Positions 2,672 through 52,143 of a stretch of 64,000 bases of DNA are shown here, one piece after another. A model generated the notes under the pieces. It saw only the letters and a list, made by a program, of their open reading frames with translations, searched no databases and was not told where the DNA came from. The stretch's first letter is position 1. The number at the start of each line of letters is the position of its first letter. The stretch covers positions 7,943-71,942 of the forward strand of contig CAYZIS010000001.1 in NCBI GenBank assembly GCA_964478545.1, written 5' to 3'. The position numbers were made by a program, and so were the translations under genes. This stretch comes from an uncultured Thermodesulfobacteriota bacterium. Its GTDB lineage: Bacteria; Desulfobacterota; Anaeroferrophillalia; Anaeroferrophillales; Anaeroferrophillaceae.

Positions 2672-2689
2672 CCATGATGGCTTGTTTCT

Positions 2690-3035
2690 AAATAAAGCAA
2701 TTAGCTTTTAGCCATTAGCTATTAGTTTATGATTACAGATACCTACCCATTAAATATTGTTACTAATCAACGTAAAGCCTTGATTTTTAAAAGCTAAATG
2801 CTAATGGCTAACTGCTAATCACCTAACTTGTTTTACTATGCCATCAGTTTTCTGACTTCTGGATAAATAATTGTAATATATTGAAATCATTAATTTTTTG
2901 TTTATCAATATCTCACGTTTATAAAGCAATTACCTAAGGATGTCCGGGCTTGGCTCATAGCCGTGTCTGCCGACAGGCAGGCCATGGGAGACCGGCGAGA
3001 ATGAGCGAGAGCCATGCCGGGACATCATCAAGAAC
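2690..3035. repeat. Family-1 repeat, arm + short-hairpin core variant. TTAGCNN heptad arms at 2690-2745 and, inverted, 2790-2830. Core 2938-3026.
   Basis: Core 'GGATGTCCGGGCTTGGCTCATAGCCGTGTCTGCCGACAGGCAGG...GAGAATGAGCGAGAGCCATGCCGGGACATC' matches the ends of the long form at 42193 but lacks its central segment. Confidence 0.75.
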
Positions 3036-3108
3036 AATTACTTACTTTACAGATGTGTGGCCGCAGCAAGCGGACTGAAAACGCTTTTCACCAAAGAAAG
3101 CATCAACA

Positions 3109-4500
3109 ATGAATACCAATGCCTCCGAATCCGGTAGAATTCTGCTGGTTGATGATGATCAGAATATCCTTGAAGTCCTGAAAATAAGGCTAGAATCCAT
3201 TGGCTATGCCGTTGTTGACCACCGCTCACCCCGTGTGGCCTTCCAGGCATTTGCCAATGAACCGTTTGACCTGGTCATCACTGATCTGAAGATGGCGGAG
3301 ATGGACGGCCTGACCCTGATGAAGGAAATTCTGGCCCTGAACATAGATATGCCGGTATTGATCCTCACCGCCCATGGAACCATCGCCAATGCGGTTACCG
3401 CAATGAAAGAAGGGGCTTATGGTTATATCACCAAGCCTTTTCAACCCGAAGAGCTGGCCATCCAGGTAAAAAACGCCATCGAAAAATCCCATTTACGGGC
3501 AGAAATCACACGTTTACAAGATATGCTGGAAGATGAACGCAAGAAGCAGTCACCAATTATTTCCACCAGTCCGGCCATGCGCAATGTTATCAAAACCATC
3601 AGCGCCATCAGTAATTCCAATTCGACGGTCATGATTTTGGGTGAAAGCGGTACGGGGAAAGAACTGGTGGCCCGGGAAATCCATCACCGCAGCCCCAGGA
3701 ACCATAAAAACTTTATCGCGGTTAACTGTGGCGCTATCCCGGAAACTTTACTGGAAAGCGAGTTGTTCGGGTATACAAAAGGGGCCTTCACCGGGGCCGC
3801 AAAAAATCATGCCGGCATTTTCCAGCGTGCCGAGGGCGGAACCATTTTCCTGGATGAAATTACGGAAACTTCTCCATCCTTTCAGGTTAAGTTGCTCCGG
3901 GTTCTCCAAGAAAGATGTGTGTTCCCCTTAGGATCCAATCAGGAAGTGGATATTGACGTCCGGATCATTGCCGCCAGCAACCAGGACCTGGAACAGCAGG
4001 TTCAGACAGGAAAGTTTCGCGAGGATCTTTTCTACCGCATTTATGTCATCCCCATCAACCTGCCACCATTGAGAGAACGCCACGAAGACATCCCTCTACT
4101 TGCCCAGTATTTTCTCGAATACTACCGACAGGAATTACATAAAAATACTATCATTGGCTTTCAGCAGTCAACTCTGCAAAAAATGCTGGTCTATCAATGG
4201 CCGGGAAATATCAGGGAACTTGAAAATAAAATCCAGTACGCCCTGGCTGTTTCGAACGGTGAGTTTATCAACCCCGAAGAAATGTTTCCCGTTTTGCCCG
4301 GCAAAGCCCAGAGTCCAGCAACCACCATGCATGATGCAAAAAAACAGTTTGAACGAGATTATATTATCAATGTTCTCAACATAACCAAAGGAAATGTCAG
4401 CCAGGCAGCCCAACTCTCCGGACGCCACCGGGTTGATTTTTACAACCTGATCAAAAAACATCAGATTGATGTGAATGCTTTCCGCCATAAAACTGCATAG
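3109..4500 (+). CDS. sigma-54-dependent response regulator (NtrC family: REC - AAA+ - Fis HTH)
   Basis: 'ILLVDDDQNILEVL' with receiver Asp 'DLVITDLKM'. Walker A 'GESGTGKE'. 'GAFTGA' sigma-54 contact motif. 'ESELFGY'. C-terminal HTH. Confidence 0.9.
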   Translation: MNTNASESGRILLVDDDQNILEVLKIRLESIGYAVVDHRSPRVAFQAFANEPFDLVITDLKMAEMDGLTLMKEILALNIDMPVLILTAHGTIANAVTAMKEGAYGYITKPFQPEELAIQVKNAIEKSHLRAEITRLQDMLEDERKKQSPIISTSPAMRNVIKTISAISNSNSTVMILGESGTGKELVAREIHHRSPRNHKNFIAVNCGAIPETLLESELFGYTKGAFTGAAKNHAGIFQRAEGGTIFLDEITETSPSFQVKLLRVLQERCVFPLGSNQEVDIDVRIIAASNQDLEQQVQTGKFREDLFYRIYVIPINLPPLRERHEDIPLLAQYFLEYYRQELHKNTIIGFQQSTLQKMLVYQWPGNIRELENKIQYALAVSNGEFINPEEMFPVLPGKAQSPATTMHDAKKQFERDYIINVLNITKGNVSQAAQLSGRHRVDFYNLIKKHQIDVNAFRHKTA

Positions 4501-4533
4501 CCTGTAGGCTACCTTGAAAAATGGCCTTTTTGC
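4499..4533 (+). promoter_or_regulatory. candidate upstream activator site, copy 1 (AGCCTGTAGGCTACC...AAAAATGGCCTT)
   Basis: A second copy lies at 4644-4678. Both sit 200-370 bp upstream of a sigma-54-type promoter. Confidence 0.35.
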
Positions 4534-4643
4534 TCGATTACTGCGTTAGGCTCAAATTATAATCCTCAAAATATGAAATATATTCCTGCGGTTATAATTT
4601 TCGCCTGCCTTGTACTCAAACAAAAATTCTAATTTTTCAAGAC

Positions 4644-4678
4644 AGCCTGTAGGTTATCCACTACAAAAAGTGGCCTTC
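4644..4678 (+). promoter_or_regulatory. candidate upstream activator site, copy 2 (AGCCTGTAGGTTATCC...AAAAAGTGGCCTT)
   Basis: Direct repeat of 4499-4533. Confidence 0.35.
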
Positions 4679-4875
4679 CCCTACGCCCACACCAAGAATA
4701 AAACTAAGCTCCCTCCCATCCCTCTTGAGATTATCACTTAATCGATGATTTGTTTACGAAACCGTAATTCAAGCCGGAATTTTGTACGTTAACATACCCG
4801 TTAGATTTTTTTTAATTTCTTATTGCATAACCATATCATATTGAACTTATTAGTGTTTTTAAATTATCTTCAGGT

Positions 4876-4891
4876 TGGTACCATTGTTGCT
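4876..4891 (+). promoter_or_regulatory. candidate sigma-54 (-24/-12) promoter TGGTAC-N5-TTGCT
   Basis: GG-N10-GC spacing. 'TTGGTACCATTGTTGCT' against consensus TGGCAC-N5-TTGCW. Lies about 57 bp upstream of the ORF at 4948, which has a GGGAGG RBS. Confidence 0.5.
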
Positions 4892-4947
4892 CTCATTAGA
4901 TTAAAGCTTTGGCATAAACAGCCAATTAATAAGCTAGGGAGGAAAAG

Positions 4948-5400
4948 ATGTACAACCAAGCCAACACCATCAAAAGTTATGAGAAAATTCATAGGATTGT
5001 TCGTGGTGGCCCCATTCTGACCCTCACCCAGAAAAACATTCTAACCTTTTTCCTGCTTGTTGGAATTTTAGGCGGATCAATGCTGGCAGATTGCTGGGGA
5101 AATATCCCGACCGCTCAAGAACAATCGCAGATGCAGGCCCAAAAGTCCAACGGGAACATGCACCGATTTCTACAGCAGCAGCTCAATCCCCTGCACACAG
5201 CCAAAACAAGGGGACAATTTAAACAGAAGGTGATGACAAAAACCGGCAGGACAACGGCACAATCAAGGCATCAGCGCCAAAATGAAAAGTTGAGAAAAAG
5301 GATACAGGCTAGAAAAGATTTCTTGAAGGAAAAACGGAAATGCACCCTAGCCAAGGTTCTCTTTCTGGTTTCTCTCTCCAAGCCGTTAAATAAACCTTAA
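4948..5400 (+). CDS. hypothetical small membrane protein (one TM helix, basic C-terminus)
   Basis: Strong RBS GGGAGG 6 nt upstream. TM segment 'ILTFFLLVGILGGSMLA'. No recognisable family. Confidence 0.45.
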   Translation: MYNQANTIKSYEKIHRIVRGGPILTLTQKNILTFFLLVGILGGSMLADCWGNIPTAQEQSQMQAQKSNGNMHRFLQQQLNPLHTAKTRGQFKQKVMTKTGRTTAQSRHQRQNEKLRKRIQARKDFLKEKRKCTLAKVLFLVSLSKPLNKP

Positions 5401-5451
5401 TGAATAGCTGAATCGACCACCCTCCCTCCTTTCTCCCATAGCGGGGCAAAC

Positions 5452-6357
5452 TTAAGCCGGCAACGGCAAAGGGTTCGCCCCGCGACCTTTTCCCGTCAAA
5501 AACTTTTTATTACGCCGACGGACCTCGTCCTGCAAAAAACTAATCTGTTCATCGGTGAGGTTCTTGTAACGACCCTGGACCTGAAAATAACTGGCAAGGG
5601 GTTCATAGGTTTCCGGGACATAGGTCAGTTGTAGTTCATTATCTTTATTCTGCTCCAAGAGCGGGAAGATTCCCGTTTCCACCGCCAGCCGGGTTACCTC
5701 CAGGGATGCCGATGAATCCAGTTTCCACCCTACAGGGCAGGCCGCCAGCAGGTGCAGAAAGCGAAAACCGCTCCGTTTTTTGGCTTTTTCAAATTTTGCC
5801 ATAAAGTCTTCAGGATAAGCGATGGTGGCGGTAGCCAGGTAACTTGGCCTGTGGGCTTTAATAATGGAAATAATATCTTTCTTCTCATATTCCAGTTCTT
5901 TGCCAGCCGGAGTAGTGGTTGTCCAGGCCCCCGGGGGAGTGGCCGAAGAGCGCTGGATACCGGTATTCATATAGGCTTCATTATCATAGCAGACATAAAG
6001 AAAATCTTCATGCCGCTCCGCCGCCCCGGAAATCGCCTGCAATCCGATATCAAAAGTTCCGCCGTCACCAGCCCAGACCACAACCGTCACCTCCTGGCGC
6101 CCCTGGGCCAATAACGCCCGCCGGACACCGGAAGCACAGGCGGCCGCAGTAGCGAAAGGAACATGGAGAAGAGGCACCGATACTGCCGTCGTCGGCAGGC
6201 CGCCGACAATAATTGAAGTACAACAAGCGGGCAACACCACAATGGTTTGTTCGCCCAGCATTTTCAGGGCATGACGCAGACTCAGCGATGCCCCACAACC
6301 AGGACAGGCCATATGACCGGTATGAAGATATTCAGCGGTGGTAACGTTCCACAACAT
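5452..6357 (-). CDS. porB: 2-oxoacid:ferredoxin oxidoreductase beta subunit (TPP-binding), locus 1
   Basis: 'GHMACPGCG', 'GDGGTFDIGLQAISGA', '[18 protein letters not shown]'. Paralog of the ORF at 49735-50670. Confidence 0.88.
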   Translation of the reverse strand: MLWNVTTAEYLHTGHMACPGCGASLSLRHALKMLGEQTIVVLPACCTSIIVGGLPTTAVSVPLLHVPFATAAACASGVRRALLAQGRQEVTVVVWAGDGGTFDIGLQAISGAAERHEDFLYVCYDNEAYMNTGIQRSSATPPGAWTTTTPAGKELEYEKKDIISIIKAHRPSYLATATIAYPEDFMAKFEKAKKRSGFRFLHLLAACPVGWKLDSSASLEVTRLAVETGIFPLLEQNKDNELQLTYVPETYEPLASYFQVQGRYKNLTDEQISFLQDEVRRRNKKFLTGKGRGANPLPLPA

Positions 6358-6575
6358 GGATAAATCCTTTCGATTTTAGCTGCTAGCTATCAGCTGTTAG
6401 CTTTTAGTAAAACCTCAACTTTCTGACTTTCATGGCCAAAAATACATTACAGGATGTTCGGGCCTGGCTCATAGCCGTGTCCGCCGTGCCTGCCGGCAGG
6501 CACGGCGACAGGCAGGGCTGTTTTTAGAGCAACTCAGAAAGTTAAGCTTGTGCTTTCAGCTTTATACCTTTAGCC
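6358..6575 (+). repeat. Family-1 composite repeat inserted between porA and porB. TTAGCTN heptads 6361-6395, core 6450-6526, ACCTT-type heptads 6545-6575.
   Basis: Contains a perfect palindrome 'GTGCCTGCCGGCAGGCAC' followed by a T-run. Occupies the entire 218-bp porA-porB gap. Confidence 0.8.
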
Positions 6576-7745
6576 TCAAATCCAGATAGTTTCGCTAGTC
6601 GACAGCTCCTCAGCCTGCATGGCAATCTGCTCGATGACTTCCGGAAAGACCTCTTTCCCCCCCAGACTGATAATGACATCATGAACTGCCGGGCGCTCAT
6701 CTTCTTCGTACAGTGCAGCCCGCACTTCCTGGGAAACGGTACCGCCAACCCCGAATGAAACCGCCCGGTTCAAAACAATCAGCCGTTTTATCCCAGAGAC
6801 CAGCCGCGCCAGTTCCCGGCTGGGGAAAGGCCTGAACAGACGCAATTTAAGCAAACCCACAGGATGGCTGTCCTGGCGTAAACGATCAACCGCCACCCGA
6901 ACCGTACCGGTCAGGGCCCCGGAACAACAGAAAATAATTTCCGCATCATCACAACGGTAAGCCTCAAGATGTTCATAACTTCGACCAAAACGCTCGGCAA
7001 ACTGCCGGCAGCCATCAGCCAGGATATCCCCGGCATCTTCCATCGTCCTGGCAATATTTTTTTTCAGCTGATAAAAACCATCCGGAAAGGCGGCAGCGGA
7101 AAAAGAACGGGGATCATCGGTATCAAGGAAATACTGAGGCCGGTAGGGAGGCAGAAAGGCATCCACCTCCTCAGCCGCTGGCACCATCAACGGCTCCATC
7201 GTATGGGAAAGGATGAAACCATCAATCATCACCATCACCGGCAGCAAAATCCGTTCACTTAACCAGTAAGCCTGAATAATGGTGTCCAGAGCTTCCTGGG
7301 CAGTCTCACAATAGATCTGCAGCCAGCCCACATCACGTTGTGACAGGCTGTCACTCTGGTCACACCAGATATTCCAGGGGGCGCCCAGGGCCCGGTTGGC
7401 ATTAACCATCACCAGCGGCATCCTCGCACCGGAAAACCAGTGGAGCAGTTCATGCATCATCGCCAGCCCTTGTGAACTGGTGGCCGTAAACGACCGACTG
7501 CCAGCGGAAACAGACCCTAAGCAGGCGGCTATGGCTGACATTTCAGATTCCACCTTGATAAACTGGCAGGGAAATTCCCCCCGGTCGACCATTTCCGACA
7601 GGATTTCGATAATATGGGTTTGCGGTGTAATGGGGTAGGCCGAAATTACCTGTGGGCGGCAAAGCCTGACCCCATGAGCAACGGCATCACTGCCCATCAT
7701 CATTTCCCTGGACGATTTTTCACCAGGCTTTAATTCACCCTGCAT
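6576..7745 (-). CDS. porA: 2-oxoacid:ferredoxin oxidoreductase alpha subunit, locus 1
   Basis: '[15 protein letters not shown]'. Full alpha-subunit architecture. The start abuts the stop of the upstream fusion gene. Confidence 0.88.
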   Translation of the reverse strand: MQGELKPGEKSSREMMMGSDAVAHGVRLCRPQVISAYPITPQTHIIEILSEMVDRGEFPCQFIKVESEMSAIAACLGSVSAGSRSFTATSSQGLAMMHELLHWFSGARMPLVMVNANRALGAPWNIWCDQSDSLSQRDVGWLQIYCETAQEALDTIIQAYWLSERILLPVMVMIDGFILSHTMEPLMVPAAEEVDAFLPPYRPQYFLDTDDPRSFSAAAFPDGFYQLKKNIARTMEDAGDILADGCRQFAERFGRSYEHLEAYRCDDAEIIFCCSGALTGTVRVAVDRLRQDSHPVGLLKLRLFRPFPSRELARLVSGIKRLIVLNRAVSFGVGGTVSQEVRAALYEEDERPAVHDVIISLGGKEVFPEVIEQIAMQAEELSTSETIWI

Positions 7746-9377
7746 CTAAACATCCTCCTTCATCTCAATTACCGCCCGGGGACAAGAGGCGGCACATAAA
7801 CCACATCCCTTACAGTGATCTTCATCAATGATAACGCTGGTCCCAAAATCTCCCTCAACCAAAGAGATGGCCAGATCAGGACAGAAAAACCAGCAAATTC
7901 CACATCCGGTACAAATACCACAATTAAAACATCTCCCGGCCTCGGCAAAAGCCTCTTCATCATTAAGGGAATGCACCACCTCCGCAAATGAGTGCTGGCG
8001 GCTTGTCGGGTTTTCTTCCACCAGAGAAATGGCTTTCTGCGATTGACAATAATCCAGGTGAAGATCGGCAAAGCTGACAATCCGGACTTCTGCTTCCCCA
8101 GCAGGGAGCTCACCTTCCCAGTCATCTTCCAATGCCAGCCCACAACGGGATAAAATAGTTTTTGCCGCCGCTTTGCCGGAGGCCATTGCCTCCACCACCG
8201 TTGCCGGACCACTGACCAGATCTCCTCCCAGCAGCAAACGCTCATGGTTTAACGCCAAATCGTCCCCTGCCTGCTGGCCAATAGCCACCACCAGACCGTC
8301 GACTTTCAGCTGATCAATAACTTCTCCGGCTTTAATTCCGGAACCATCATCGGGAATCACCTGGCTCAAGATCAGCTGCAACTGTCCATCTTCAGCAACT
8401 ACTCCAGTCACCAGTTGCTGCTGACACAACAAAACTCCTTCCTCCAGCGCCTGTTTTTTCTCATCGCTGTAAGCGGGCATTTCCGCAAAAGTCCGGCGAT
8501 AAATGATCTGCACCTCTTTTCCCAGGCGGCGCAGGGAGCGGGCCACATCCACCGCCACATTACCGCCACCGATGACCCCAAAGGATGATCCCGCCGGAAC
8601 CCCGCCGGTGGCAATATCATGCAACAGCTCCAATCCGGGATAGATCCCTGGTTGTGGCAAAAAATCACCGGGCATCAACGACTGCCCCAACCCCGGAGCC
8701 CGGAAAACATAATCGTATTCCTCCAGTATTTTTTCCAGTTGTTCCAGTTGTATCTCCCGATTACAGCAGAGCTCAATAGGTAATGAATTAACCAGATTAT
8801 CAATTTCCCGGTTCAATATCTCCCGGGGCAAACGGTAAGCGGGAATCCCATAGCGCAGCAATCCCCCGGGGGCAGTCTCTTTTTCATAGATCGTCACCCT
8901 GATTCCCTGACGAGCCAGAAAGGCGGCGCAGGCCAGCCCGGCAGGCCCGCTGCCGATCACCGCCACCCTTTCCGGGCGCAATGCCGGAGGTGCCGGAAAA
9001 GGAATATCGAGACCATAATCACCCAGGAAGCGTTCAACAAAACCGATCTGCACTGCTTGATCGAAATCCTGGCGATTGCAATTTTGCTGGCAGAAATTCG
9101 GACAGACCCGACCGCACACCGCCGGCAACGGATTGAATCTTCGCAGGCGGGCCAATGCCGCCGCCACATCCCGCCGGGACAACTCCCACATATAGCTGGC
9201 AATATCAATATAAAGCGGGCAGGCTACCTGGCAGGGAGCAGTTTTCTCCACCAGTTGGGGACGAAAAAACTTCCAGCTGCCGGTAAGATTTATTTCTGTC
9301 GTGGTGGTGGAAACGGGGAAATCCCACAGGCCGTCCGGCAACTTTTTCCCTTTTATATCAAGAATTTGCATGGGCAT
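7746..9377 (-). CDS. fusion protein: GltD-like NAD(P)H-binding flavoprotein ([4Fe-4S] N-terminus + FAD/NAD(P) Rossmann domains) + C-terminal 2x[4Fe-4S] PorD-like ferredoxin
   Basis: N-terminal Cys motifs 'CQVACPLYIDI...CGRVCPNFC'. Dinucleotide motif 'VAVIGSGPAGLACAAFLARQG...YEKETAPGG'. Second Rossmann 'VIGGGNVAVDVAR'. C-terminal 'CFNCGICTGCGICWFFCP...CKGCGLCAASCP'. The six-frame ORF starts at 9452, but the Met at 9377 or 9371 behind a GGAGG is more plausible because it just overlaps the porG stop. Confidence 0.75.
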   Translation of the reverse strand: MPMQILDIKGKKLPDGLWDFPVSTTTTEINLTGSWKFFRPQLVEKTAPCQVACPLYIDIASYMWELSRRDVAAALARLRRFNPLPAVCGRVCPNFCQQNCNRQDFDQAVQIGFVERFLGDYGLDIPFPAPPALRPERVAVIGSGPAGLACAAFLARQGIRVTIYEKETAPGGLLRYGIPAYRLPREILNREIDNLVNSLPIELCCNREIQLEQLEKILEEYDYVFRAPGLGQSLMPGDFLPQPGIYPGLELLHDIATGGVPAGSSFGVIGGGNVAVDVARSLRRLGKEVQIIYRRTFAEMPAYSDEKKQALEEGVLLCQQQLVTGVVAEDGQLQLILSQVIPDDGSGIKAGEVIDQLKVDGLVVAIGQQAGDDLALNHERLLLGGDLVSGPATVVEAMASGKAAAKTILSRCGLALEDDWEGELPAGEAEVRIVSFADLHLDYCQSQKAISLVEENPTSRQHSFAEVVHSLNDEEAFAEAGRCFNCGICTGCGICWFFCPDLAISLVEGDFGTSVIIDEDHCKGCGLCAASCPRAVIEMKEDV

Positions 9378-9948
9378 AACCTCCATCAACCACAGCAAGC
9401 CGGTATGCTTCTTCCATGGCCTGTCGGTTTTCATCATGTTTAACCGGCACAAAGCGAGGAAGTGCTTCTCTTAAAGTATCCAGGGATACCAAGCCACTAA
9501 CCTTGGCAAAAGCTCCCAGAATCGGGGCATTAACCAGAGGCATGGTCGGGCTCCCCAGGTGGTATCGCAGGGCAACTTCATTCGCATTCACCGTCGCTAT
9601 CCGACAATTTTTGGCCAGCTCCTGGTAAAATGAAGCGGGATGCTCAGTGTTAATCAGAATCAGGCCCCCATCTTTAATGCCGGCATCTACCGCTACCGTT
9701 TCTGCAAGCCGGGCCGCCATCACAATCACATAATCAGGATTCACCACCTGGCTGCGCAGATTGATGAAATGATCGTCCATGCGGACAAAGGCCGCCACCA
9801 GTGCACCCCGACGCTCAGCCCCAAAAGTTGGAAACGACTGGGCAAACTTCCCTTCAAGAAAAAAAGCGTAAGAAAGAACCCTGGAAGCGATGACCGCCCC
9901 TTGTCCTCCGCGCCCGTGAAAGCGTATTTCAAGCATATTCTCCCTCAT
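9358..9948 (-). CDS. porG: 2-oxoacid:ferredoxin oxidoreductase gamma subunit, locus 1
   Basis: 'MLEIRFHGRGGQGAVIASRVL...FPTFGAERRGA'. GGGAGA RBS precedes the start. Confidence 0.85.
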   Translation of the reverse strand: MRENMLEIRFHGRGGQGAVIASRVLSYAFFLEGKFAQSFPTFGAERRGALVAAFVRMDDHFINLRSQVVNPDYVIVMAARLAETVAVDAGIKDGGLILINTEHPASFYQELAKNCRIATVNANEVALRYHLGSPTMPLVNAPILGAFAKVSGLVSLDTLREALPRFVPVKHDENRQAMEEAYRLAVVDGGYAHANS

Positions 9949-9960
9949 TTTATCACCAAT

Positions 9961-10050
9961 TATTTACAATTTTAGCGGCATGAGTCCTTGAAAAACAGGC
10001 AATCGAGCATCAAAAATGCTGTAATCAGTTCTAGTTCAAAAAATGCAGGA
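9961..10050 (+). repeat. Family-4 conserved ~95-bp element, copy A, forming the 5' leader of porG on the minus strand
   Basis: Aligns over ~90 bp with 46350-46470. Hairpin AGCAT-TTTTG-ATGCT shows compensatory change to AGCGC-TTTTT-GGCGCT in copy B. Confidence 0.5.
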
Positions 10051-10265
10051 TACCTAACCAGATATCAATGATTATTTTTCACAAAAGCATCATGCTTACA
10101 GTGAAAAATAATGCAGAAAAAACAAAATATCAAGGAAAAAGTCCAAAAATCACTAAGAAAAAAACCTTGAAAAAAACGCCATTTTATGAGATAGCCAGCT
10201 TTGTACGAAAAGGCAGGAGAAATATTTTCCCTCATCGATATCTAATTTTTTCAAGGAGATTCGTA

Positions 10266-11570
10266 ATGAAAAAAGGCCTTCTGGTTATTATGTTCTTTGC
10301 TCTGTTGGCCGCTTCCGGCTGCAACTCGCACATACCCTTCTTTGGCGATAAAAAAGTGGAGCAGGACGAACCGGTGGTTCAGGAAACCACCCAGAATGCC
10401 GTCGAACAACCACAATACAGTGGTGCGGCACCGGCAAACCAGCAGCAGTCATGGCAGGGACAGACTGGACAGCAGCCTTATTATGGCAACACCCAGGGCA
10501 GCCAGCAGGCACCCTATAACGCCTATAATTACGGCGTTCCGGCTGCTTCACCCAGCCCGGGATACCAGAACCCCTATGGTGGAGCGACAGCACCGGCCCA
10601 ACCATACCAGCAACAACCGGGAATATACGGGAAGCAGGCGCCGGCTTACGGCAACCAGGCGCCGATAGCCGGCAACTATGGCCAAGCACCAGCAAGCAGC
10701 TATGGCAGTTATGGTGCCGCTCCTGCCTATACTCCAGCTCCCATGCCCGGCCAGTACCATGCTCCAACCGCCACCTCGGGGATCTATGGCAACCAGCAGA
10801 ACGCAGCCCTTTCCCCGACCCCAGGATTCATCAGCACCACCAGGATGGGAGATTCCTTCGCTTTTCAGGGCATCAAACGAAAAATTGTCTTTATTATTCA
10901 TTACCCCCAGCGAGGCCTGACCACTACTCCTCTCGATCAGTTCAGCCAAAAGATCTATGGCCAACTGGCGGCGGCCCCTGGAATTCTCTTACTGCCGAAA
11001 GAGGCAGTCAGCACCTATGTCAGCAACCACCAACTGTTCATTGACTCCCTGGAAACCAGGACCAAGCTGGCAAAACTGGGGCGGGAAATGGGTGCCCATG
11101 TGGTTATTCTGGAAAAAGTCAAGTTCCTGTCCCCACCACAACCGGGGGGTGAAGGCAACTATCAGCTGAACCTGGAAGCAATTGATGTATCCTCGGGTTA
11201 TCCTCTCAAAACCTATGCTATCCAAGGCAATAGTTACCAGGCAACCCCATCAGTAGATCAGGTTATCTCGGACCTGTCTGGAAATTTGAAAATGATCGAC
11301 TGGTATTCACGGTTGATCAAAGTTGACAAGGGACGGATTTTTGTCAATGCCGGACGCCTCAGCGGCTTGCAGATAGGCCAGAAATTACGGGTTTATGCCA
11401 AGGGCTCGGACGTTGTTGACCCGGCCACCAAGATGTCTTTGGGCAAAGCCCAGGGAGTAATGAAAGGAATTGTTAAGGTTGCCGACTTTTTTGGCATGGA
11501 CGGAGCAATTTGCGAAATCGTTTCCGGTAAAGGTTTTGCCGTTGCTGACATGATAAAAGCAGTGGAATAG
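10266..11570 (+). CDS. hypothetical lipoprotein with a long Gln/Tyr/Pro/Gly-rich low-complexity linker and a C-terminal globular domain
   Basis: AGGAGA RBS. Signal 'MKKGLLVIMFFALLAASGC'. About 150 aa of 'QQPYYGNTQGSQQAPYNAYNYG...' low complexity. C-terminal 'DFFGMDGAICEI' motif shared with the next gene. Confidence 0.6.
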   Translation: MKKGLLVIMFFALLAASGCNSHIPFFGDKKVEQDEPVVQETTQNAVEQPQYSGAAPANQQQSWQGQTGQQPYYGNTQGSQQAPYNAYNYGVPAASPSPGYQNPYGGATAPAQPYQQQPGIYGKQAPAYGNQAPIAGNYGQAPASSYGSYGAAPAYTPAPMPGQYHAPTATSGIYGNQQNAALSPTPGFISTTRMGDSFAFQGIKRKIVFIIHYPQRGLTTTPLDQFSQKIYGQLAAAPGILLLPKEAVSTYVSNHQLFIDSLETRTKLAKLGREMGAHVVILEKVKFLSPPQPGGEGNYQLNLEAIDVSSGYPLKTYAIQGNSYQATPSVDQVISDLSGNLKMIDWYSRLIKVDKGRIFVNAGRLSGLQIGQKLRVYAKGSDVVDPATKMSLGKAQGVMKGIVKVADFFGMDGAICEIVSGKGFAVADMIKAVE

Positions 11571-11616
11571 CCACCCATACACGGTAACAATTCTGTAAAT
11601 TGATTGATTGGATTCC

Positions 11617-11657
11617 AAGACAGAGCATCATCATCACGATGCTCTGTCTTCGTTATT
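11617..11657 (+). terminator. rho-independent terminator (AAGACAGAGCATC-loop-GATGCTCTGTCTT followed by CGTTATT)
   Basis: Perfect 13-bp stem seen directly in the sequence. Confidence 0.7.
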
Positions 11658-11776
11658 AAGTTAAGATTCAAAGGAAATATCTCAGCCCGAAGGACACAGA
11701 AATCACGAAGTTTTCATTAAAAAGGCTTCTTCTCGTAACAATGACACTTTCAATGTATTTTGCAAAAGACAAAAAT

Positions 11777-12916
11777 ATGAACGATCAGCATACATTTTTT
11801 ACCGTTGGCCACATCATCAGAATCCTGCTGCTTTTCTGCCTGCTTTTAGCCCTGAATGCCTGCTACCAGCTGCCGTTTCTCCCTCATCGGGAAATTGATA
11901 CCTTTCAGCCGGTGGCGCCGAAAGTGACAGACACCATGGAAGTCCGTGGAGTAACCTACGTCCGAGTCATTAAACCCGGAAGTGAAAAAAATCTGGATCA
12001 ACCTGCAACCATCTGGATTCCTCTGGATGTTTTCCGCAAAGGTGATTACCAACCTTACCAAAGTCCGATGGTAAAAAAGTCCCTACCGGCAATAAAGACG
12101 GCTGCCAGTTCTATACCGCCGGCAGCGACCAAAAACCTGGTGGCAGCCGGAACGCCGCTGCCAGGAACAAAAGAACTGGCAGAAGAGCAACTGGTTGAGG
12201 CGACAAAAACAACAACGACCCTGCCCCTGCGGCGACGGGGAATCTGTTTCCCCAGCCGGGCAACTATCCGTTATCCGCAGATTACCAGCCAATTGATCAT
12301 CGAGCTAGAGCAGCAATTACCCCTGACCATGCTTCCGGTTGACTATATTCCACTCCGGGATGACAGCTGGCAAACCAGTGACACCAATGAATTAATCGCC
12401 CAAAGCAAAGGCTGGCTCAAAAGCGTATCGAAGCTGCCACCGGCCCAACTGATTTTTCTGCTGACCCAGGAAATATCATCCTTCTATCCCTGTTTCCTGG
12501 TAACAATTCTGGATGCCCAGTCGGCCAAACCGGTTGCCTCTTTTACCTTTGTCATCACACCTGGTACCGGCAGACCCACAAACCTGGTACCACCACAACC
12601 TCAGCCATTGATTCAGCTGGTGCTGACCTCCCCCTGGTGGTGCAGCGCCACCCCGGGAAATAACAAAAAAACCGTCTTTCTGGCTGCCGGGCAGAAAAGT
12701 CGGGTCACGGAGGGCTTACATCTGCAACTCTGCCAACCGGCGGAAAAGATTTCTGATCCTAAAGACGGATCATTACTGGGCTTTGCCATTGGACAACCTT
12801 TTGCGGAAGCCGTTGTCACTGACTTTTTCGGCCAGGACGGCGCCATTGCTTCCTTGCGATCACGCACAGATATCCCGGTCACTGGCTGTCTGGCAGTCCC
12901 ATACCCGGAACAGTAA
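11777..12916 (+). CDS. hypothetical lipoprotein, paralogous C-terminal domain to 10266-11570
   Basis: Signal 'IIRILLLFCLLLALNAC'. C-terminal 'DFFGQDGAIASLRS' parallels the upstream gene. Confidence 0.55.
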   Translation: MNDQHTFFTVGHIIRILLLFCLLLALNACYQLPFLPHREIDTFQPVAPKVTDTMEVRGVTYVRVIKPGSEKNLDQPATIWIPLDVFRKGDYQPYQSPMVKKSLPAIKTAASSIPPAATKNLVAAGTPLPGTKELAEEQLVEATKTTTTLPLRRRGICFPSRATIRYPQITSQLIIELEQQLPLTMLPVDYIPLRDDSWQTSDTNELIAQSKGWLKSVSKLPPAQLIFLLTQEISSFYPCFLVTILDAQSAKPVASFTFVITPGTGRPTNLVPPQPQPLIQLVLTSPWWCSATPGNNKKTVFLAAGQKSRVTEGLHLQLCQPAEKISDPKDGSLLGFAIGQPFAEAVVTDFFGQDGAIASLRSRTDIPVTGCLAVPYPEQ

Positions 12917-13268
12917 AACCTAAGCTAAGCAATTAGCTGTTAGCTATCAGCGTTTAGCTTTAAAAAATCAAGGCATTACGTTTATTAGCAACTCAACGTT
13001 CTGACTTATTTTAAAAACAGCTAAAAAAAATTCCAGGAATGTTCCGGCATGGCTCTCACTCATTCTCGCCGGCTATCCATGGCCGGCTTCCGAGGCGTCC
13101 GCCGTCAATCACCATCCAGGTGATTCGTTCGGCGGCCAAAACCGGCAGGCTGGGTAGACACGGCTATGAGCCAAGCCCAAACATCCTGTAAGGTCCCTGG
13201 CAATACAAGCCAGAAAGTTAAGATTAAACTAATAGCTAACGACTAACTGCTTGATTCAGGAGGAAAAC
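12917..13268 (-). repeat. Family-1 composite repeat, long-form core in reverse orientation. Core 13034-13178, heptad arms 12917-12975 and 13205-13250.
   Basis: The reverse complement of the core aligns with 42193-42326, including the internal GAATCACC/GGTGATTC hairpin and the GCCGGCC-ATGGA-GGCCGGC hairpin. Fills the whole gap up to the ilvD RBS. Confidence 0.8.
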
Positions 13269-14927
13269 ATGCGTTCCGACATAATGAAAAAAGGGGTTGA
13301 GCGGGCTCCCCATCGCTCCTTGTTCAAAGCCATGGGCTACACTGATAAAGAGTTACAACGGCCGATTATCGGCATAGCCAATGCCGCCAATGAACTGATT
13401 CCCGGCCATATTCACCTGGACCGCATTGCTGAAGCAGTCAAAGCAGGCATCAGGATGGCAGGCGGCACACCAATGGAGTTTCCCACCATCGGCGTCTGTG
13501 ACGGCATTGCCATGGGGCATGTGGGAATGAAATATTCACTCGGATCACGGGAATTAATCGCCGATTCTGTGGAAGTTATGGCCACGGCCTACCCCTTTGA
13601 CGGCCTGGTTTTAATTCCCAACTGCGATAAAATTGTTCCCGGAATGATTATGGCCGCTGCCAGGCTGAATATTCCCGCTATCGTGGTCAGCGGCGGCGCC
13701 ATGATGGCCGGCCAATGTGGCGGAAAAACTGTCGATCTGATCACGGTTTTTGAAGGAATGGGAAAATTGAAGGTCGGTAAAATTACCGCTGAGGAATTGC
13801 ATGAGCTGGAAGATACCGCCTGCCCTGGGGCAGGTTCCTGCAGTGGCATGTTCACCGCCAATTCCATGAATTGCCTTACCGAAGCATTGGGTATCGCCCT
13901 GCCTGGCAATGGAACCATCCTGGCCATCGACGCCGCCCGCATCCGGCTGGCCAAAGAATCGGGACAGCAGATCATGTCCCTGATTGAACAGGGAATAACT
14001 TTCCGCCAGATACTGACCCCTGAAGCATTTCATAATGCGGTTACCGTTGATATGGCCTTTGGTGGCTCCACCAACACTTCACTCCATTTGCCGGCCATCG
14101 CCCATGAAGCCGGGGTGTCGCTGCCGCTCTCAACTTTCAATGAAATCAGTGAAAAGACACCACATATCTGTAATATGTCCCCCGGTGGCCCCCACCATAT
14201 TCAGGATCTGCACCGGGCCGGCGGCATTCAGGCAATCATGAAACTGCTTGCCAACGCCAGCCTGCTGCATACCGAGTGCTTAACAGTGAGCGGAAAAATC
14301 ATCGCAGACAACCTGCAAACAGCCGGGGTTCATGATCCTGAAGTTATTCGCCCCCTGAACCATCCCTATCATCCAACCGGAGGACTGGCGATATTGCAGG
14401 GAAATCTGGCGGCAGACGGCGCGGTGGTCAAGCAATCGGCTGTCGCCCCGGAAATGCTTGTTCATGAAGGCCCTGCCCGGGTGTTCAATGCCGAAGAAGA
14501 TGCTTTTGACGCCATTATGAACCACCAAGTAGAACCGGGTGACGTCCTGGTTATCCGTTACGAGGGACCCAAGGGCGGTCCGGGAATGCGGGAAATGCTT
14601 TCTCCCACTTCGGCTATCGCCGGTATAGGGCTGGATAAAGAAGTGGCCCTGCTCACGGATGGCCGCTTTTCCGGCGGCACCCGCGGGGCAGCCATCGGTC
14701 ATATTTCTCCGGAGGCGGCGGCTGGTGGGCTGATCGGCCTGGTTGAAGAGGGCGATATCATCGCCATTGATATTCCCGGAAAAACCCTGACTCTGAAAGT
14801 GGCCGATGATGTATTGGCCCAGCGCCGGGAAAACTGGCAGCCACTGCCGGCCAAGATCACCACCGGCTACATGGCCCGTTATGCCAGGCTGGTAACTTCC
14901 GCCAATACCGGAGCTGTCTTTAAATAA
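13269..14927 (+). CDS. ilvD: dihydroxy-acid dehydratase
   Basis: '[20 protein letters not shown]', 'CDGIAMGH', 'CDKIVPGM'. Start at ATG 13269 behind CAGGAGG. Confidence 0.92.
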
Positions 14928-14999
14928 CGGTGCAGGGGGCATTACCAGGGAATAAGTTTTTTAAGTTTTATAATCTCACAAAAAGTTGCGAAACTGATG

Positions 15000-15110
15000 G
15001 CACAGTAAAAGCTTCATATTCGAGGCAGGCAAAACCTGAGTCGTGATGCGTACTTATAGTACGTTGTAATGGCGAAGGTTGCAGCCTAACGAAGAAGATG
15101 GAGCTTTTTA
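15000..15110 (+). repeat. Family-3 conserved ~110-bp element, copy 1 (TGGCACAGTAAAAGCTTCATATTCGAGGCAGGCAAAACCTGAG...GAAGGTTGCAGCCTAACGAAGAAGATGGAGC)
   Basis: Other copies at 17995-18110 (+) and 25440-25560 (-). Conserved GG-N10-GC at the 5' end. Internal hairpin GCGTACT-TAT-AGTACGT. Confidence 0.7.
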
Positions 15111-15132
15111 CAAAGCCAGAAACCGTAAAATC

Positions 15133-47366: not shown

Positions 47367-47398
47367 TCCCCTTTGCTATGGATGGGATACAAAACTCA

Positions 47399-49249: not shown

Positions 49250-49281
49250 GGGAAATATCCTTTTTCAGTTAGCGCAGAACA

Positions 49282-49731: not shown

Positions 49732-49734
49732 AGC

Positions 49735-52141: not shown

Positions 52142-52143
52142 TC

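What the first reader, a model, noticed from the sequence alone, without database searches (positions are those of the whole stretch)
7746..9377. OFOR locus 1 encodes a GltD-like NAD(P)H flavoprotein fused to the delta ferredoxin subunit
The gene between porG and porA joins an N-terminal glutamate-synthase-small-subunit-like module ([4Fe-4S] Cys motifs plus two Rossmann dinucleotide motifs) to a C-terminal 2x[4Fe-4S] PorD domain. This predicts that electrons from 2-oxoacid oxidation pass directly to NAD(P)+ within one complex, a 2-oxoacid:NAD(P)+ oxidoreductase, rather than via free ferredoxin. It departs from the canonical porGDAB layout kept in locus 2.
Basis: partly seen in the sequence, partly recalled or inferred. 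Interest (0 to 1): 0.65.

Follow-up and report, generated by a model that had tools for sequence, protein, structure and literature searches.

The report
NADPH flavoprotein inserted into oxoacid-oxidoreductase ferredoxin subunit
One gene of a four-gene 2-oxoacid oxidoreductase operon encodes the enzyme's small ferredoxin subunit with a complete NADPH-binding iron-sulfur flavoprotein inserted into it, so this widespread but unstudied enzyme class probably passes electrons from 2-oxoacid oxidation to NADP+ instead of to free ferredoxin.

Summary
The minus-strand gene 7746..9377 (likely true start 9371) lies between the gamma and alpha genes of an OFOR operon. It combines a GltD/NfnB-type [4Fe-4S]/FAD/NADPH module with a PorD-type 2x[4Fe-4S] domain.

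It is not an artefact. The identical protein occurs on six independent contigs. At least 147 clusters at 50% identity share the architecture, and the gamma-fusion-alpha-beta order held in every locus with enough flank.

Two refinements:
- It is an insertion, not an end-to-end fusion. Residues 1-44 are the N-terminal arm of PorD (invariant TGxW...P), residues 487-543 are its di-cluster core, and the flavoprotein sits between them.
- The flavoprotein module is circularly permuted, as in StnC, NsoC and NfnA(ABC). Its first CxxC lies after the flavin domain and runs straight into the PorD cysteine motif.

There is no nfnA gene. The NfnB-specific Arg333 is Tyr here, and the YRR NADPH motif is invariant. 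The best reading is a non-bifurcating 2-oxoacid:NADP+ oxidoreductase, with pyruvate or a branched-chain 2-oxoacid as substrate (unresolved).

The principle has precedent in the Azoarcus evansii 2-oxoglutarate:NADP+ oxidoreductase, so this is a new variant of a known kind. No activity has been measured.

The "canonical" locus 2 is itself followed by NuoE/F/G-like genes.

The parts
9358..9948 (-). OFOR gamma subunit gene (porG/porC-like). Gene callers start it at 9936 (192 aa). Its stop overlaps the start of the next gene.
   Evidence: Pfam POR, 110.5 bits. TIGR02175 PorC_KorC, 192.6 bits, above the 81.1 cut-off. It precedes the fusion gene in all loci that have enough flank.
7746..9377 (-). Composite delta subunit gene: PorD arm, then a permuted GltD/NfnB-like [4Fe-4S]2-FAD-NADPH module, then the PorD 2x[4Fe-4S] core. 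543 aa from 9377; the probable true start is ATG 9371 (541 aa).
9246..9377 (-). Residues 1-44: the N-terminal arm of PorD/VorD, carrying the hallmark ...T-x2-N-x-TG-x-W-x4-P... motif (TEINLTGSWKFFRPQLVE).
   Evidence: The first 60 aa alone hit only four NCBIfam models: three OFOR delta models (PorD_Arch E=0.005, VorD PRK09623 E=0.007, PorD PRK09624 E=0.11) and PRK12771. Joining residues 1-44 to 484-543 raises TIGR02179 from 55.3 to 71.1 bits (cut-off 60.05) in one stretch covering model positions 6-77 of 78. T27, N30, T32, G33, W35 and P40 are invariant in 28 homologues, and TG.W is kept in 128-130 of 147 representatives. Residues 1-34 have pLDDT below 50 in the monomer model.
9015..9245 (-). 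Residues 45-121: the Fer4_20 domain lacking its first about 27 positions. It carries cluster ligands C49, C53, C92, C96, C100 and E115.
   Evidence: Pfam Fer4_20 matches model positions 28-107 of 113. These Cys and E115 are invariant and nearly universal in 147 representatives.
8148..8969 (-). Residues 137-410: the FAD and NADPH double Rossmann domain. Motifs: GSGPAG at 142-147, GGGNVAVD at 270-277, YRR at 293-295. R182 corresponds to NfnL Arg201, and Y303 sits at the NfnL Arg333 position.
   Evidence: Pfam Pyr_redox_2. Alignments to 5jca_L and 4ylf_B. Y293, R294, R295 and R182 are invariant. Position 303 is F/I/H/Y/L/S among the six commonest residues in 147 representatives, and Arg is not among them.
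8028..8147 (-). Residues 411-450: a variable linker, with a low-confidence stretch at 421-428.
   Evidence: Poorly conserved and variable in length in alignment A1. pLDDT is below 50 at 421-428.
7920..8027 (-). Residues 451-486: the relocated N-terminal element of the Fer4_20/NfnB fold (...EEAFAEAGRC483FNC486). It supplies the first CxxC of the flavoprotein's distal [4Fe-4S] cluster.
   Evidence: It aligns to T. maritima NfnB residues 7-42. Placing it in silico in front of residues 45-135 extends the Fer4_20 match to model positions 2-107 of 113 and raises the score from 69.2 to 102 bits. The same post-flavin position is seen in 9bov_A, 8oh5_C and 9n5u_A. R482, C483, C486 and G487 are invariant.
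7749..7919 (-). Residues 487-543: the PorD-type 2x[4Fe-4S] ferredoxin core, C489xxC492xxC495xxxC499P ... C522xxC525xxC528xxxC532P. The stop codon is at 7746-7748.
   Evidence: NCBIfam PorD_Arch, VorD and TIGR02179 match at 487-541. It is 47% identical to the locus 2 PorD and matches 9bt4_G, the PFOR delta subunit. All eight Cys are invariant.
6576..7745 (-). OFOR alpha subunit gene (porA/vorA-like). It starts immediately after the stop of the fusion gene.
   Evidence: Pfam POR_N plus PFOR_II. PorA_Arch 455.5 bits (cut-off 550) and VorA 382.6 bits. The best solved relative is the M. acetivorans PFOR alpha subunit 9bt4_B, 314 bits. It is 45% identical to the locus 2 alpha subunit.
6358..6575 (-). 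The 218-nt alpha-beta intergenic spacer. It is strongly structured as RNA and holds a perfect 24-nt GC-rich palindrome at 6483-6506.
   Evidence: Sequence. MFE -77.2 kcal/mol against -58.5 +/- 4.3 for shuffles, z = -4.4. Homologous loci also have alpha-beta spacers, of variable length, roughly 30-350 nt.
5452..6357 (-). OFOR beta subunit gene (TPP and [4Fe-4S] binding). It is the last gene of the operon.
   Evidence: Pfam TPP_enzyme_C. PRK11864 (VorB-like subfamily) 376.9 bits and PorB PRK11865 340.9 bits, both below the 405 cut-off. Genes on the opposite strand flank the operon on both sides.

Best explanation
The four genes encode a POR/VOR-type 2-oxoacid oxidoreductase (gamma, composite delta, alpha, beta). 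Its delta ferredoxin subunit has an NADPH-dependent iron-sulfur flavoprotein built into it.

Proposed path:
1. The 2-oxoacid is decarboxylated on TPP at the alpha/beta active site.
2. Electrons leave one at a time through the beta-subunit [4Fe-4S] cluster to the two PorD-type clusters (C489-C532).
3. They pass to the two flavoprotein clusters. The distal one is held by C483, C486, C49 and C100. The proximal one is held by C53, C92, C96 and E115.
4. They collect on FAD, which reduces NADP+ by hydride transfer.

Net reaction: 2-oxoacid + CoA + NADP+ -> acyl-CoA + CO2 + NADPH. It is non-bifurcating and in practice irreversible in the oxidative direction.

Shown here: the domain anatomy, the complete ligand sets, the NADPH-type motif, the absence of any separate delta or nfnA gene, and the conserved operon.

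Inferred: the order of clusters in the wire, NADP+ as the acceptor, the direction of the reaction, and the substrate (pyruvate or a branched-chain or other 2-oxoacid).
For: Anatomy.

Cofactor ligands: 15 Cys, E115, both Rossmann motifs and YRR are invariant across 28 homologues of 40-86% identity and nearly universal in 147 cluster representatives.

Fold: pLDDT 87.9. The best matches are StnC and NfnA(ABC), then NfnL, NfnB, DPD and GltD.

The module belongs to the OFOR complex:
- There is no other delta gene in the operon.
- The gamma-fusion-alpha-beta order holds in 24 of 24 genome loci with flanks, including a Syntrophomonadaceae locus at 31% identity, and in L035, L036, L037 and L039.
- In L038, gamma is fused in front of the composite delta and alpha is fused to beta. 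20 of 147 representatives are 700 aa or longer.

Non-bifurcating:
- No nfnA gene is present.
- The NfnL Arg333 position is Tyr303. Its six commonest residues in the family are F, I, H, Y, L and S, with no Arg. These are the criteria that separate monofunctional FNORs from NfnB in PMC12221290.
- The closest solved relative, StnC, has a non-bifurcating FAD that simply feeds a [4Fe-4S] chain (PMC10482914).

Precedent: the A. evansii 2-oxoglutarate:NADP+ oxidoreductase has a GltD-family subunit that groups with NsoC (PMC10134865).

Oxidative direction: one locus has acetate-kinase-like and PTA_PTB genes immediately downstream, one has a TRAP DctPQM transporter, and one has a Glu/Leu/Phe/Val dehydrogenase.
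Against: No activity, cofactor content or structure of the complex has been measured.

Passing about -500 mV electrons to NADP+ (-320 mV) gives up energy that anaerobes normally conserve through ferredoxin. That makes a purely dissipative role somewhat unexpected.

The surface-exposed PorD cluster ligands are retained, so reduction of external ferredoxin is not excluded.

Substrate specificity is unresolved. Alpha leans towards PorA and beta towards VorB-like, and all scores are below the equivalog cut-offs.

The intact protein falls below the curated cut-offs of TIGR02179 (48.9 against 60.05) and PRK12771 (387.8 against 516).
Confidence: 0.66

Rival explanations
1. Branched wire with two acceptors. 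The complex still reduces soluble ferredoxin at the exposed PorD cluster, and the built-in flavoprotein acts as a resident ferredoxin:NADP+ oxidoreductase. 2-Oxoacid electrons are then shared between ferredoxin and NADP+, or the two pools are equilibrated, according to demand.
For: All eight PorD-core Cys are invariant, including those of the cluster that is surface-exposed in ordinary OFORs. The flavoprotein's CxxC (C483, C486) is contiguous with the first PorD motif (C489...). If the ligand pattern of D. africanus PFOR applies (own knowledge), this places the flavoprotein next to the median PorD cluster rather than the outermost one. Free-standing NfnB-like proteins are proven Fd:NADP+ oxidoreductases (PMC12221290).
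Against: Cluster geometry was not measured. The inserted 440-residue module may cover the ferredoxin docking surface. The genome keeps a second POR locus whose beta and gamma subunits reach the POR equivalog cut-offs, and that locus could serve ferredoxin.
Confidence: 0.2
2. Flavin-based electron bifurcation or confurcation. The NfnB-like FAD would couple NADP(H), ferredoxin and the 2-oxoacid/acyl-CoA couple, for example to let NADPH help drive reductive carboxylation.
For: The module is homologous to NfnB, whose FAD bifurcates. NfnL Arg201 is conserved as R182.
Against: There is no nfnA-like gene and no other high-potential branch in this operon or in any related locus examined. The Arg333 equivalent is Tyr or another uncharged residue. 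The nearest solved relative, StnC, has a non-bifurcating FAD (PMC10482914).
Confidence: 0.07
3. NADPH-driven 2-oxoacid synthase. The complex would run in reverse, using NADPH to carboxylate acyl-CoA for biosynthesis.
For: OFORs are reversible in principle. The locus lies near ilvD in this window and in L036.
Against: On standard potentials (own knowledge), NADPH at about -320 to -370 mV cannot drive a couple near -500 mV without coupling, a deficit of roughly +30 kJ/mol. Related loci show catabolic contexts: ack/pta, a TRAP transporter and an amino-acid dehydrogenase.
Confidence: 0.04
4. Artefact or decaying gene: a chimeric ORF made by misassembly or frameshift, or a non-functional fusion.
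For: None was found.
Against: The identical protein is on six contigs from independent assemblies. Hundreds of homologues share the architecture with invariant ligands. The fold prediction is confident.
Confidence: 0.01

Closest known systems
2-Oxoglutarate:NADP+ oxidoreductase (KGOR) of Azoarcus evansii (Ebenau-Jehle, Boll and Fuchs 2003)
   Same: A TPP/Fe-S 2-oxoacid oxidoreductase that reduces NADP+ through an attached GltD-family FAD/Fe-S protein. PMC10134865 places that subunit in the NsoC clade of the GltD family. That clade contains the best solved relatives of the protein studied here (PMC10482914).
   Different: As I recall, the A. evansii enzyme has a Kor-type core with a separate flavoprotein subunit and acts on 2-oxoglutarate. 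The original paper could not be read here. The present enzyme has a four-subunit POR/VOR-type core, the flavoprotein is inserted inside the delta subunit, and the substrate is unknown. No sequence comparison with the A. evansii protein was possible.
Cac_0764-type NfnB-like ferredoxin:NADP+ oxidoreductases (PMC12221290)
   Same: Fer4_20 plus Pyr_redox_2 architecture with two [4Fe-4S] clusters and FAD. They use NADP(H), have no nfnA partner and lack Arg333. They are experimentally non-bifurcating.
   Different: They are free-standing proteins that take electrons from soluble ferredoxin. Here the ferredoxin is the covalently attached OFOR delta core, and the Fer4_20 domain is circularly permuted.
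GltD-like domain of StnC (8oh5_C), of NfnA in NfnABC (9n5u_A, 9bov_A) and of NsoC
   Same: These are the best sequence matches (217-200 bits) and the best structural matches (TMq 0.72-0.74). They share the permuted topology, with the RCxxCG element after the flavin domain. In StnC the FAD is non-bifurcating and feeds a chain of [4Fe-4S] clusters (PMC10482914).
   Different: In those proteins the module is fused to a NuoG/FdhF-like domain and works with a NuoEF-type bifurcating module. The extra ligand of their proximal cluster is Lys (StnC K170), whereas here it is Glu115, as in NfnB.
NfnB/NfnL of NfnAB (4ylf_B, 5jca_L)
   Same: Same fold and cofactors, the same Glu ligand, the conserved Arg201 (R182 here) and the YRR NADPH site.
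   Different: NfnB bifurcates together with NfnA, has Arg333, and has a contiguous, non-permuted Fer4_20 domain. None of these three features is present here.
Phenylglyoxylate:NAD+ oxidoreductase PadEFGHI (Azoarcus/Aromatoleum)
   Same: A four-subunit archaeal-type OFOR core with an additional FAD subunit that reduces a nicotinamide cofactor. The function is from my own knowledge of Hirsch et al. 1998, which is cited in PMC5109826.
   Different: The FAD protein is a separate subunit. The NCBIfam Pad models score far below their cut-offs: PadE 137.8 against 300, PadG 261.9 against 700, PadI 243.8 against 700.
Pyruvate:NADP+ oxidoreductase (PNO) of Euglena and Cryptosporidium
   Same: The same logic: a PFOR covalently joined to an NADPH-binding flavoprotein, so that pyruvate oxidation yields NADPH (own knowledge).
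   Different: The flavoprotein there is a cytochrome-P450-reductase-type FMN/FAD domain attached to the C-terminus of a single-chain PFOR. It is evolutionarily unrelated to the GltD-type module found here.
HdrA9-11 of ANME-1 archaea, with an NfnB-like insertion (PMC9012536)
   Same: An NfnB-like module of about 500 residues interrupts a ferredoxin domain of a larger Fe-S enzyme, the same kind of domain insertion.
   Different: The host protein is heterodisulfide reductase HdrA rather than an OFOR delta subunit. That case is also uncharacterised.

Membership tests
OFOR delta subunit (PorD/VorD; TIGR02179 PorD_KorD) | Two CxxCxxCxxxCP motifs forming a 2x[4Fe-4S] ferredoxin core | tested here: met
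   C489/492/495/499 and C522/525/528/532 are present and invariant. PorD/VorD models match residues 487-541.
OFOR delta subunit (PorD/VorD; TIGR02179 PorD_KorD) | An N-terminal arm with the TGxW...P motif in front of the cluster core | tested here: met
   Residues 26-54 match PorD_Arch model positions 13-41 (E=0.005) and VorD (E=0.007). The motif is invariant in the family.
OFOR delta subunit (PorD/VorD; TIGR02179 PorD_KorD) | A whole-protein score above the curated cut-off (60.05 bits) | tested here: inconclusive
   The intact protein scores 48.9 bits. With the insert removed in silico (residues 1-44 joined to 484-543) it scores 71.1 bits over model positions 6-77 of 78.
OFOR delta subunit (PorD/VorD; TIGR02179 PorD_KorD) | Encoded between the gamma and alpha genes, as the only delta gene of the operon | tested here: met
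GltD-like Fe-S flavoproteins (GltD, NfnB, SudA, DPD N-terminal domain) | A Fer4_20 domain with ligands for two [4Fe-4S] clusters (7 Cys plus Glu/Gln/Lys) | tested here: met
   Fer4_20 scores 73.6 bits. C483, C486, C49, C53, C92, C96, C100 and E115 are invariant. The domain is circularly permuted: 102 bits over model positions 2-107 once de-permuted.
GltD-like Fe-S flavoproteins (GltD, NfnB, SudA, DPD N-terminal domain) | FAD and NAD(P)H Rossmann folds of the adrenodoxin-reductase type | tested here: met
   Pyr_redox_2 scores 77.4 bits. GSGPAG and GGGNVAVD are present and YRR is invariant. Foldseek matches NfnL, NfnB, DPD and GltD at E 1e-31 to 1e-23.
NfnB (bifurcating subunit of NfnAB) | An nfnA gene immediately upstream | tested here: not met
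   The upstream gene is the OFOR gamma subunit. No NfnA/PyrK-like gene is present in this or any related locus examined.
NfnB (bifurcating subunit of NfnAB) | Arg333 (P. furiosus NfnL numbering) next to the FAD (criterion of PMC12221290) | tested here: not met
   It aligns to Tyr303. The six commonest residues at this position in 147 representatives are F, I, H, Y, L and S, with no Arg.
NfnB (bifurcating subunit of NfnAB) | Electron-bifurcating activity | not testable with these tools
   This needs enzyme assays with NADPH, NAD+ and ferredoxin.
NCBIfam PRK12771 'NAD(P)-binding protein' (566 aa) | A score above the curated cut-off (516 bits) with the same end-to-end architecture | tested here: inconclusive
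   The score is 387.8 bits, below the cut-off. However, the arm matches model positions 25-60 and the PorD core matches 503-564, so the architecture is the same. The model carries no functional name.
Pyruvate:ferredoxin oxidoreductase, four-subunit type (PorABCD) | Alpha, beta and gamma subunits reach the POR equivalog cut-offs | tested here: not met
   Locus 1: PorA_Arch 455.5 against 550, PorB 340.9 against 405, PorG 186.3 against 225. The best beta hit is the VorB-like model PRK11864, 376.9 against 405. For comparison, locus 2 PorB (430.8) and PorG (228.4) pass.
2-Oxoglutarate:NADP+ oxidoreductase of A. evansii type | A GltD-family FAD/Fe-S component belonging to the OFOR complex | tested here: met
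   It is present as an insertion in the delta subunit. It falls in the NsoC/StnC-like branch of the family, where PMC10134865 also places the KGOR subunit.
2-Oxoglutarate:NADP+ oxidoreductase of A. evansii type | A Kor-type core and 2-oxoglutarate specificity | tested here: not met
   Kor/Oor models score far lower than POR/VOR models (alpha 92-140 bits, beta 50-56 bits), and the core has the four-subunit POR/VOR layout.
2-Oxoglutarate:NADP+ oxidoreductase of A. evansii type | 2-Oxoacid- and CoA-dependent NADP+ reduction | not testable with these tools
   This needs an enzyme assay.

The most novel reading that the evidence does not exclude
The composite delta subunit may be a three-way redox junction. 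The flavoprotein's cluster chain would tap the median PorD cluster while the outer PorD cluster still serves ferredoxin. One enzyme could then couple 2-oxoacid oxidation, ferredoxin and NADP(H). In the extreme case the NfnB-derived FAD would do this energy-conservingly (confurcating or bifurcating), giving anaerobes an Nfn-like function built into an OFOR.
Probability: 0.1. Interest if true: 0.85.

Novelty: new variant of a known kind. Interest (0 to 1): 0.55.

Why it matters
Metabolic reconstructions of anaerobes treat POR/VOR-type enzymes as ferredoxin-reducing, and they annotate this gene as "gltD", "glutamate synthase small subunit" or "FAD-dependent oxidoreductase".

If the family reduces NADP+ directly, electron and energy budgets change for the many uncultured bacteria that carry it. 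That affects ferredoxin available for Rnf, hydrogenases or CO2 fixation, and the cell's source of NADPH. Carriers seen here include Desulfobacterota, Deferribacterota and Firmicutes.

The family would also offer a compact, oxygen-sensitive but ferredoxin-independent route from 2-oxoacids to NADPH and acyl-CoA, which is of interest for pathway engineering (compare PMC12221290).

Structurally it is a clear natural case of a circularly permuted redox module inserted into a ferredoxin so that the Cys motifs of adjacent clusters are contiguous.

The same window suggests a broader pattern. Its second POR locus is co-operonic with a NuoEFG-like NAD(H) module, so both OFORs of this organism may be hard-wired to nicotinamide cofactors.

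Tried and rejected
Literature:
- Nine full-text searches found no paper describing an OFOR delta subunit carrying a GltD/NfnB-like module.
- The key precedent paper (Ebenau-Jehle 2003) and Andersson and Roger 2002 are not held. The A. evansii comparison therefore rests on PMC10134865 and on memory.
- PMC3543383 mentions a three-gene OFOR next to gdhB in Pelobacter carbinolicus. I could not check whether it belongs to this family.

Tools:
- The afdb50 fold library was not available.
- AF2 coordinates are not exposed, so Cys-Cys and inter-cluster distances and the proximity of the two insertion junctions could not be measured.
- The genome-contig scan did not return the window's own genome, so the organism is known only as an uncultured Desulfobacterota-like lineage. 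Relatives of 73-90% identity are labelled Deltaproteobacteria or Pseudomonadota MAGs.
- The promoter/terminator scan gave nothing above background.

Readings considered and rejected:
- A simple N-terminal fusion, rejected.
- NfnB-type bifurcation, rejected and by the absence of nfnA.
- A phenylglyoxylate dehydrogenase, rejected because the Pad models are far below their cut-offs.
- An assembly artefact, rejected.

Substrate assignment from HMM scores was inconclusive: alpha leans towards PorA and beta towards VorB-like.


Full report
**1. What is in the sequence**

Four consecutive minus-strand ORFs are bounded on both sides by plus-strand genes:
- gamma, 9948..9358 (Pfam POR)
- the ORF in question, 9377..7746
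- alpha, 7745..6576 (POR_N plus PFOR_II)
- beta, 6357..5452 (TPP_enzyme_C), after a 218-nt spacer

There is no separate delta gene. The ORF is uninterrupted and encodes 543 aa from ATG 9377. The ATG at 9371 has a GGAGG 8 nt upstream, is the start chosen by gene callers (541 aa), and is where homologues begin to align. It is probably the real start.

Pfam places three features on the protein:
- Fer4_20 at residues 45-121
- Pyr_redox_2 at residues 137-379
- 4Fe-4S di-cluster families at residues 489-539

NCBIfam adds PorD/VorD models at 487-541. Its best overall hit is the functionally unnamed model PRK12771, "NAD(P)-binding protein" (387.8 bits, cut-off 516).

**2. Not an artefact, and not rare**

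- The identical protein lies on six contigs from independent assemblies.
- The 120 best database homologues are almost all 524-563 aa with 96-100% query coverage, at 40-90% identity; five are truncated (402-466 aa, 74-86% coverage). Sources label them only "FAD-dependent oxidoreductase" or "glutamate synthase beta subunit-like".
- A profile search of 1.84 billion cluster representatives returned 150 best hits, all above 390 bits. The 147 not already in hand almost all match end to end.
- In 24 of 24 species-representative genome loci with enough flank, the order gamma-fusion-alpha-beta is kept. This includes a Syntrophomonadaceae locus at only 31% identity, as well as Desulfovermiculus, Candidatus Tharpella and many Thermodesulfobacteriota MAGs.
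- Four further contigs show the same order.
- In L038 the gamma domain is fused in front of the composite protein (719 aa) and alpha is fused to beta (707 aa). 20 of 147 representatives are 700 aa or longer. These progressive fusions argue that the flavoprotein is a stoichiometric part of the OFOR complex.

**3. The architecture is an insertion, not an end-to-end fusion**

A BLAST comparison with the window's own canonical PorD (locus 2) aligned the expected C-terminal core at 47% identity. It also aligned "TGSWKFFRPQLVE" at residues 32-44 with "TGDWRSQKPIID" of PorD.

This was tested formally:
- The first 60 residues alone hit only four of 18,950 NCBIfam models. Three are OFOR delta models (PorD_Arch E=0.005 at model positions 13-41, VorD E=0.007, PorD PRK09624 E=0.11). 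The fourth is PRK12771.
- Joining residues 1-44 to 484-543 in silico gives a single match to TIGR02179 PorD_KorD over model positions 6-77 of 78, at 71.1 bits. That is above the 60.05 cut-off. The C-terminal part alone scores 55.3 bits.

T27, N30, T32, G33, W35 and P40 are invariant in 28 homologues, and TG.W is kept in 128-130 of 147 representatives. The AF2 monomer model is confident overall (pLDDT 87.9, pTM 0.86) but leaves residues 1-34 disordered. That is what one expects of an arm that packs onto partner subunits (the packing role is inference).

So PorD is split. Its arm is at the N-terminus, its cluster core is at the C-terminus, and about 440 residues of flavoprotein lie between them.

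**4. The flavoprotein module is circularly permuted**

Fer4_20 matched only model positions 28-107 of 113. The N-terminal segment holds only two of the usual four cysteines of the first motif (C49, C53).

The missing element, "...EEAFAEAGRC483FNC486G", lies after the flavin domain:
- It aligns to residues 7-42 of T. maritima NfnB, while residues 46-410 align to NfnB 44-457.
- Moving residues 451-486 in front of 45-135 in silico extends the Fer4_20 match to model positions 2-107 and raises the score from 69.2 to 102 bits.

The same topology occurs in the three best solved relatives: NfnA of T. sibiricus NfnABC (9n5u_A), NfnA of C. saccharolyticus (9bov_A) and StnC (8oh5_C). These are also the best structural matches, at TMq 0.72-0.74.

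One consequence is a single contiguous cysteine run, C483xxC486xxC489xxC492xxC495xxxC499P. The last-placed ligands of the flavoprotein's distal cluster directly abut the first PorD cluster motif.

By homology with DPD and NfnB (assignment from my own knowledge of those structures), the ligands would be:
- distal cluster: C483, C486, C49, C100
- FAD-proximal cluster: C53, C92, C96, E115

All of these are invariant. C88 is variable and presumably not a ligand. The predicted cofactor load of this subunit is four [4Fe-4S] clusters plus FAD.

**5. Acceptor and mechanism**

The second Rossmann fold is followed by an invariant Y293-R294-R295. The same YRR is seen in NfnB, NfnL and NfnA(ABC), which use NADPH. 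Its role in binding the 2'-phosphate is from my own knowledge. In 27 of 147 relatives R295 is Glu, with C/S and L/P before it, which suggests NADH-using members. The window's protein is of the NADPH type.

The module does not meet the criteria that distinguish bifurcating NfnB from monofunctional FNORs in PMC12221290:
- No nfnA gene is nearby.
- NfnL Arg333 aligns to Tyr303, and Arg is not among the six commonest residues there in 147 representatives.
- Arg201 is kept as R182.

The FAD of StnC, the closest solved relative, is non-bifurcating and simply exchanges electrons between NADPH and a [4Fe-4S] chain (PMC10482914). Free-standing NfnB-like proteins are experimentally ferredoxin:NADP+ oxidoreductases (PMC12221290).

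The most economical reading is a linear wire: TPP, beta cluster, two PorD clusters, two flavoprotein clusters, FAD, NADP+. That makes the enzyme a 2-oxoacid:NADP+ oxidoreductase. On standard potentials (about -500 mV against -320 mV, own knowledge) it would run only in the oxidative direction.

Gene contexts in relatives fit catabolism:
- acetate-kinase-like and PTA_PTB genes directly downstream (L037)
- a TRAP DctPQM transporter (L035)
- a Glu/Leu/Phe/Val dehydrogenase (L038)

**6. Substrate**

Locus 1 subunits do not reach any equivalog cut-off:
- alpha: PorA_Arch 455.5 against 550, VorA 382.6
- beta: VorB-like PRK11864 376.9 and PorB 340.9, both against 405
- gamma: PorG 186.3 against 225

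The best solved alpha relative is the M. acetivorans PFOR. Locus 2 of the same window passes the PorB (430.8) and PorG (228.4) cut-offs, and its alpha is 45% identical to the locus 1 alpha. Locus 1 is therefore a POR/VOR-clade paralogue whose substrate (pyruvate, a branched-chain 2-oxoacid or another 2-oxoacid) remains open.

**7. Comparison with what is known**

The principle is established by several systems:
- The A. evansii 2-oxoglutarate:NADP+ oxidoreductase contains a GltD-family subunit. PMC10134865 groups it with NsoC, the same branch as the best relatives here.
- The Pad phenylglyoxylate:NAD+ oxidoreductase adds an FAD subunit to a four-subunit OFOR.
- Eukaryotic PNO fuses PFOR to a P450-reductase-type domain (own knowledge).
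- An NfnB-like module inserted into a ferredoxin domain has been noted in ANME-1 HdrA (PMC9012536).

I could not find the following described in the searchable literature: a POR/VOR-type four-subunit OFOR whose delta subunit carries a permuted NsoC/StnC-type NADPH flavoprotein between its arm and its cluster core. Database names are generic. I therefore rate it a new variant of a known kind. It is widespread, coherent and testable, but not conceptually unprecedented.

**8. Rivals**

- A branched wire that still serves ferredoxin is not excluded. The outer PorD cluster ligands are invariant and the geometry was not measured.
- Bifurcation is unlikely, for the reasons in section 5.
- Reverse, NADPH-driven carboxylation is thermodynamically implausible.
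- An artefact is excluded.

**9. Limits**

No activity, cofactor analysis or complex structure exists. The original A. evansii paper could not be read.

Noticed in passing
window 46638-52701 (minus strand): The 'canonical' locus 2 is porG-porD-porA-porB followed directly by three more genes. First, a NuoE-like [2Fe-2S] thioredoxin-like protein (49731-49282), which starts 3 nt after the porB stop. Second, a NuoF/HydB-like protein (49249-47399) with FMN, NADH and 4Fe-4S domains plus 2x[4Fe-4S]. Third, a short NuoG/HydA-N-like Fe-S protein (47366-46638) with no catalytic domain. This is a BfuCBA-like NAD(H) module, so this POR may also be wired to a nicotinamide cofactor and could be bifurcating.
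   Followed up: partly
window 6358-6575, palindrome at 6483-6506: The 218-nt spacer between the alpha and beta genes of locus 1 folds far better than shuffled controls (-77.2 against -58.5 kcal/mol, z = -4.4). It contains a perfect 24-nt GC-rich palindrome, GCCGTGCCTGCCGGCAGGCACGGC. Homologous loci also have alpha-beta spacers, of variable length (about 30-350 nt). The function is unknown; it could be an mRNA processing or stability element, or a repeat element.
   Followed up: partly
L038:192-4519: A more fused version of the system. One 719-aa protein carries the POR gamma domain, the GltD-like module and the ferredoxin core. It is followed by a 707-aa alpha-beta fusion and then a Glu/Leu/Phe/Val dehydrogenase gene. 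20 of 147 family representatives are 700 aa or longer.
   Followed up: partly
family representatives P0121-P0267: About 27 of 147 representatives replace the YRR NADPH motif with C/S-L/P-E, that is, an acidic residue at position 295. The family may therefore contain an NADH-using subgroup.
   Followed up: no
window 544-16008, compared with L036 (Candidatus Anaeroferrophillus wilburensis, 62% identity): The wider neighbourhood is conserved: histidine kinase, a small ORF, a sigma-54 response regulator, a small ORF, the OFOR operon, two proteins with no Pfam match (10068-11570 and 11741-12916, the first rich in Q/P/Y/G), and ilvD (13251-14927). It is untested whether the two-component system regulates the operon or what the two unknown proteins do.
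   Followed up: no
L037:11667-14241 and L035:11816-14797: In distant relatives the operon is followed by acetate-kinase-like and PTA_PTB genes, or by a TRAP DctPQM transporter. It is preceded by an HTH_3/Cupin_2 regulator in L037 and L039. These are hints of a catabolic route that imports a 2-oxoacid and yields ATP.
   Followed up: partly
window 9371-9377: The finding's start coordinate (9377) is probably 6 nt too far upstream. ATG 9371 has a well-spaced GGAGG and matches the N-termini of homologues and the 541-aa database entry.
   Followed up: yes
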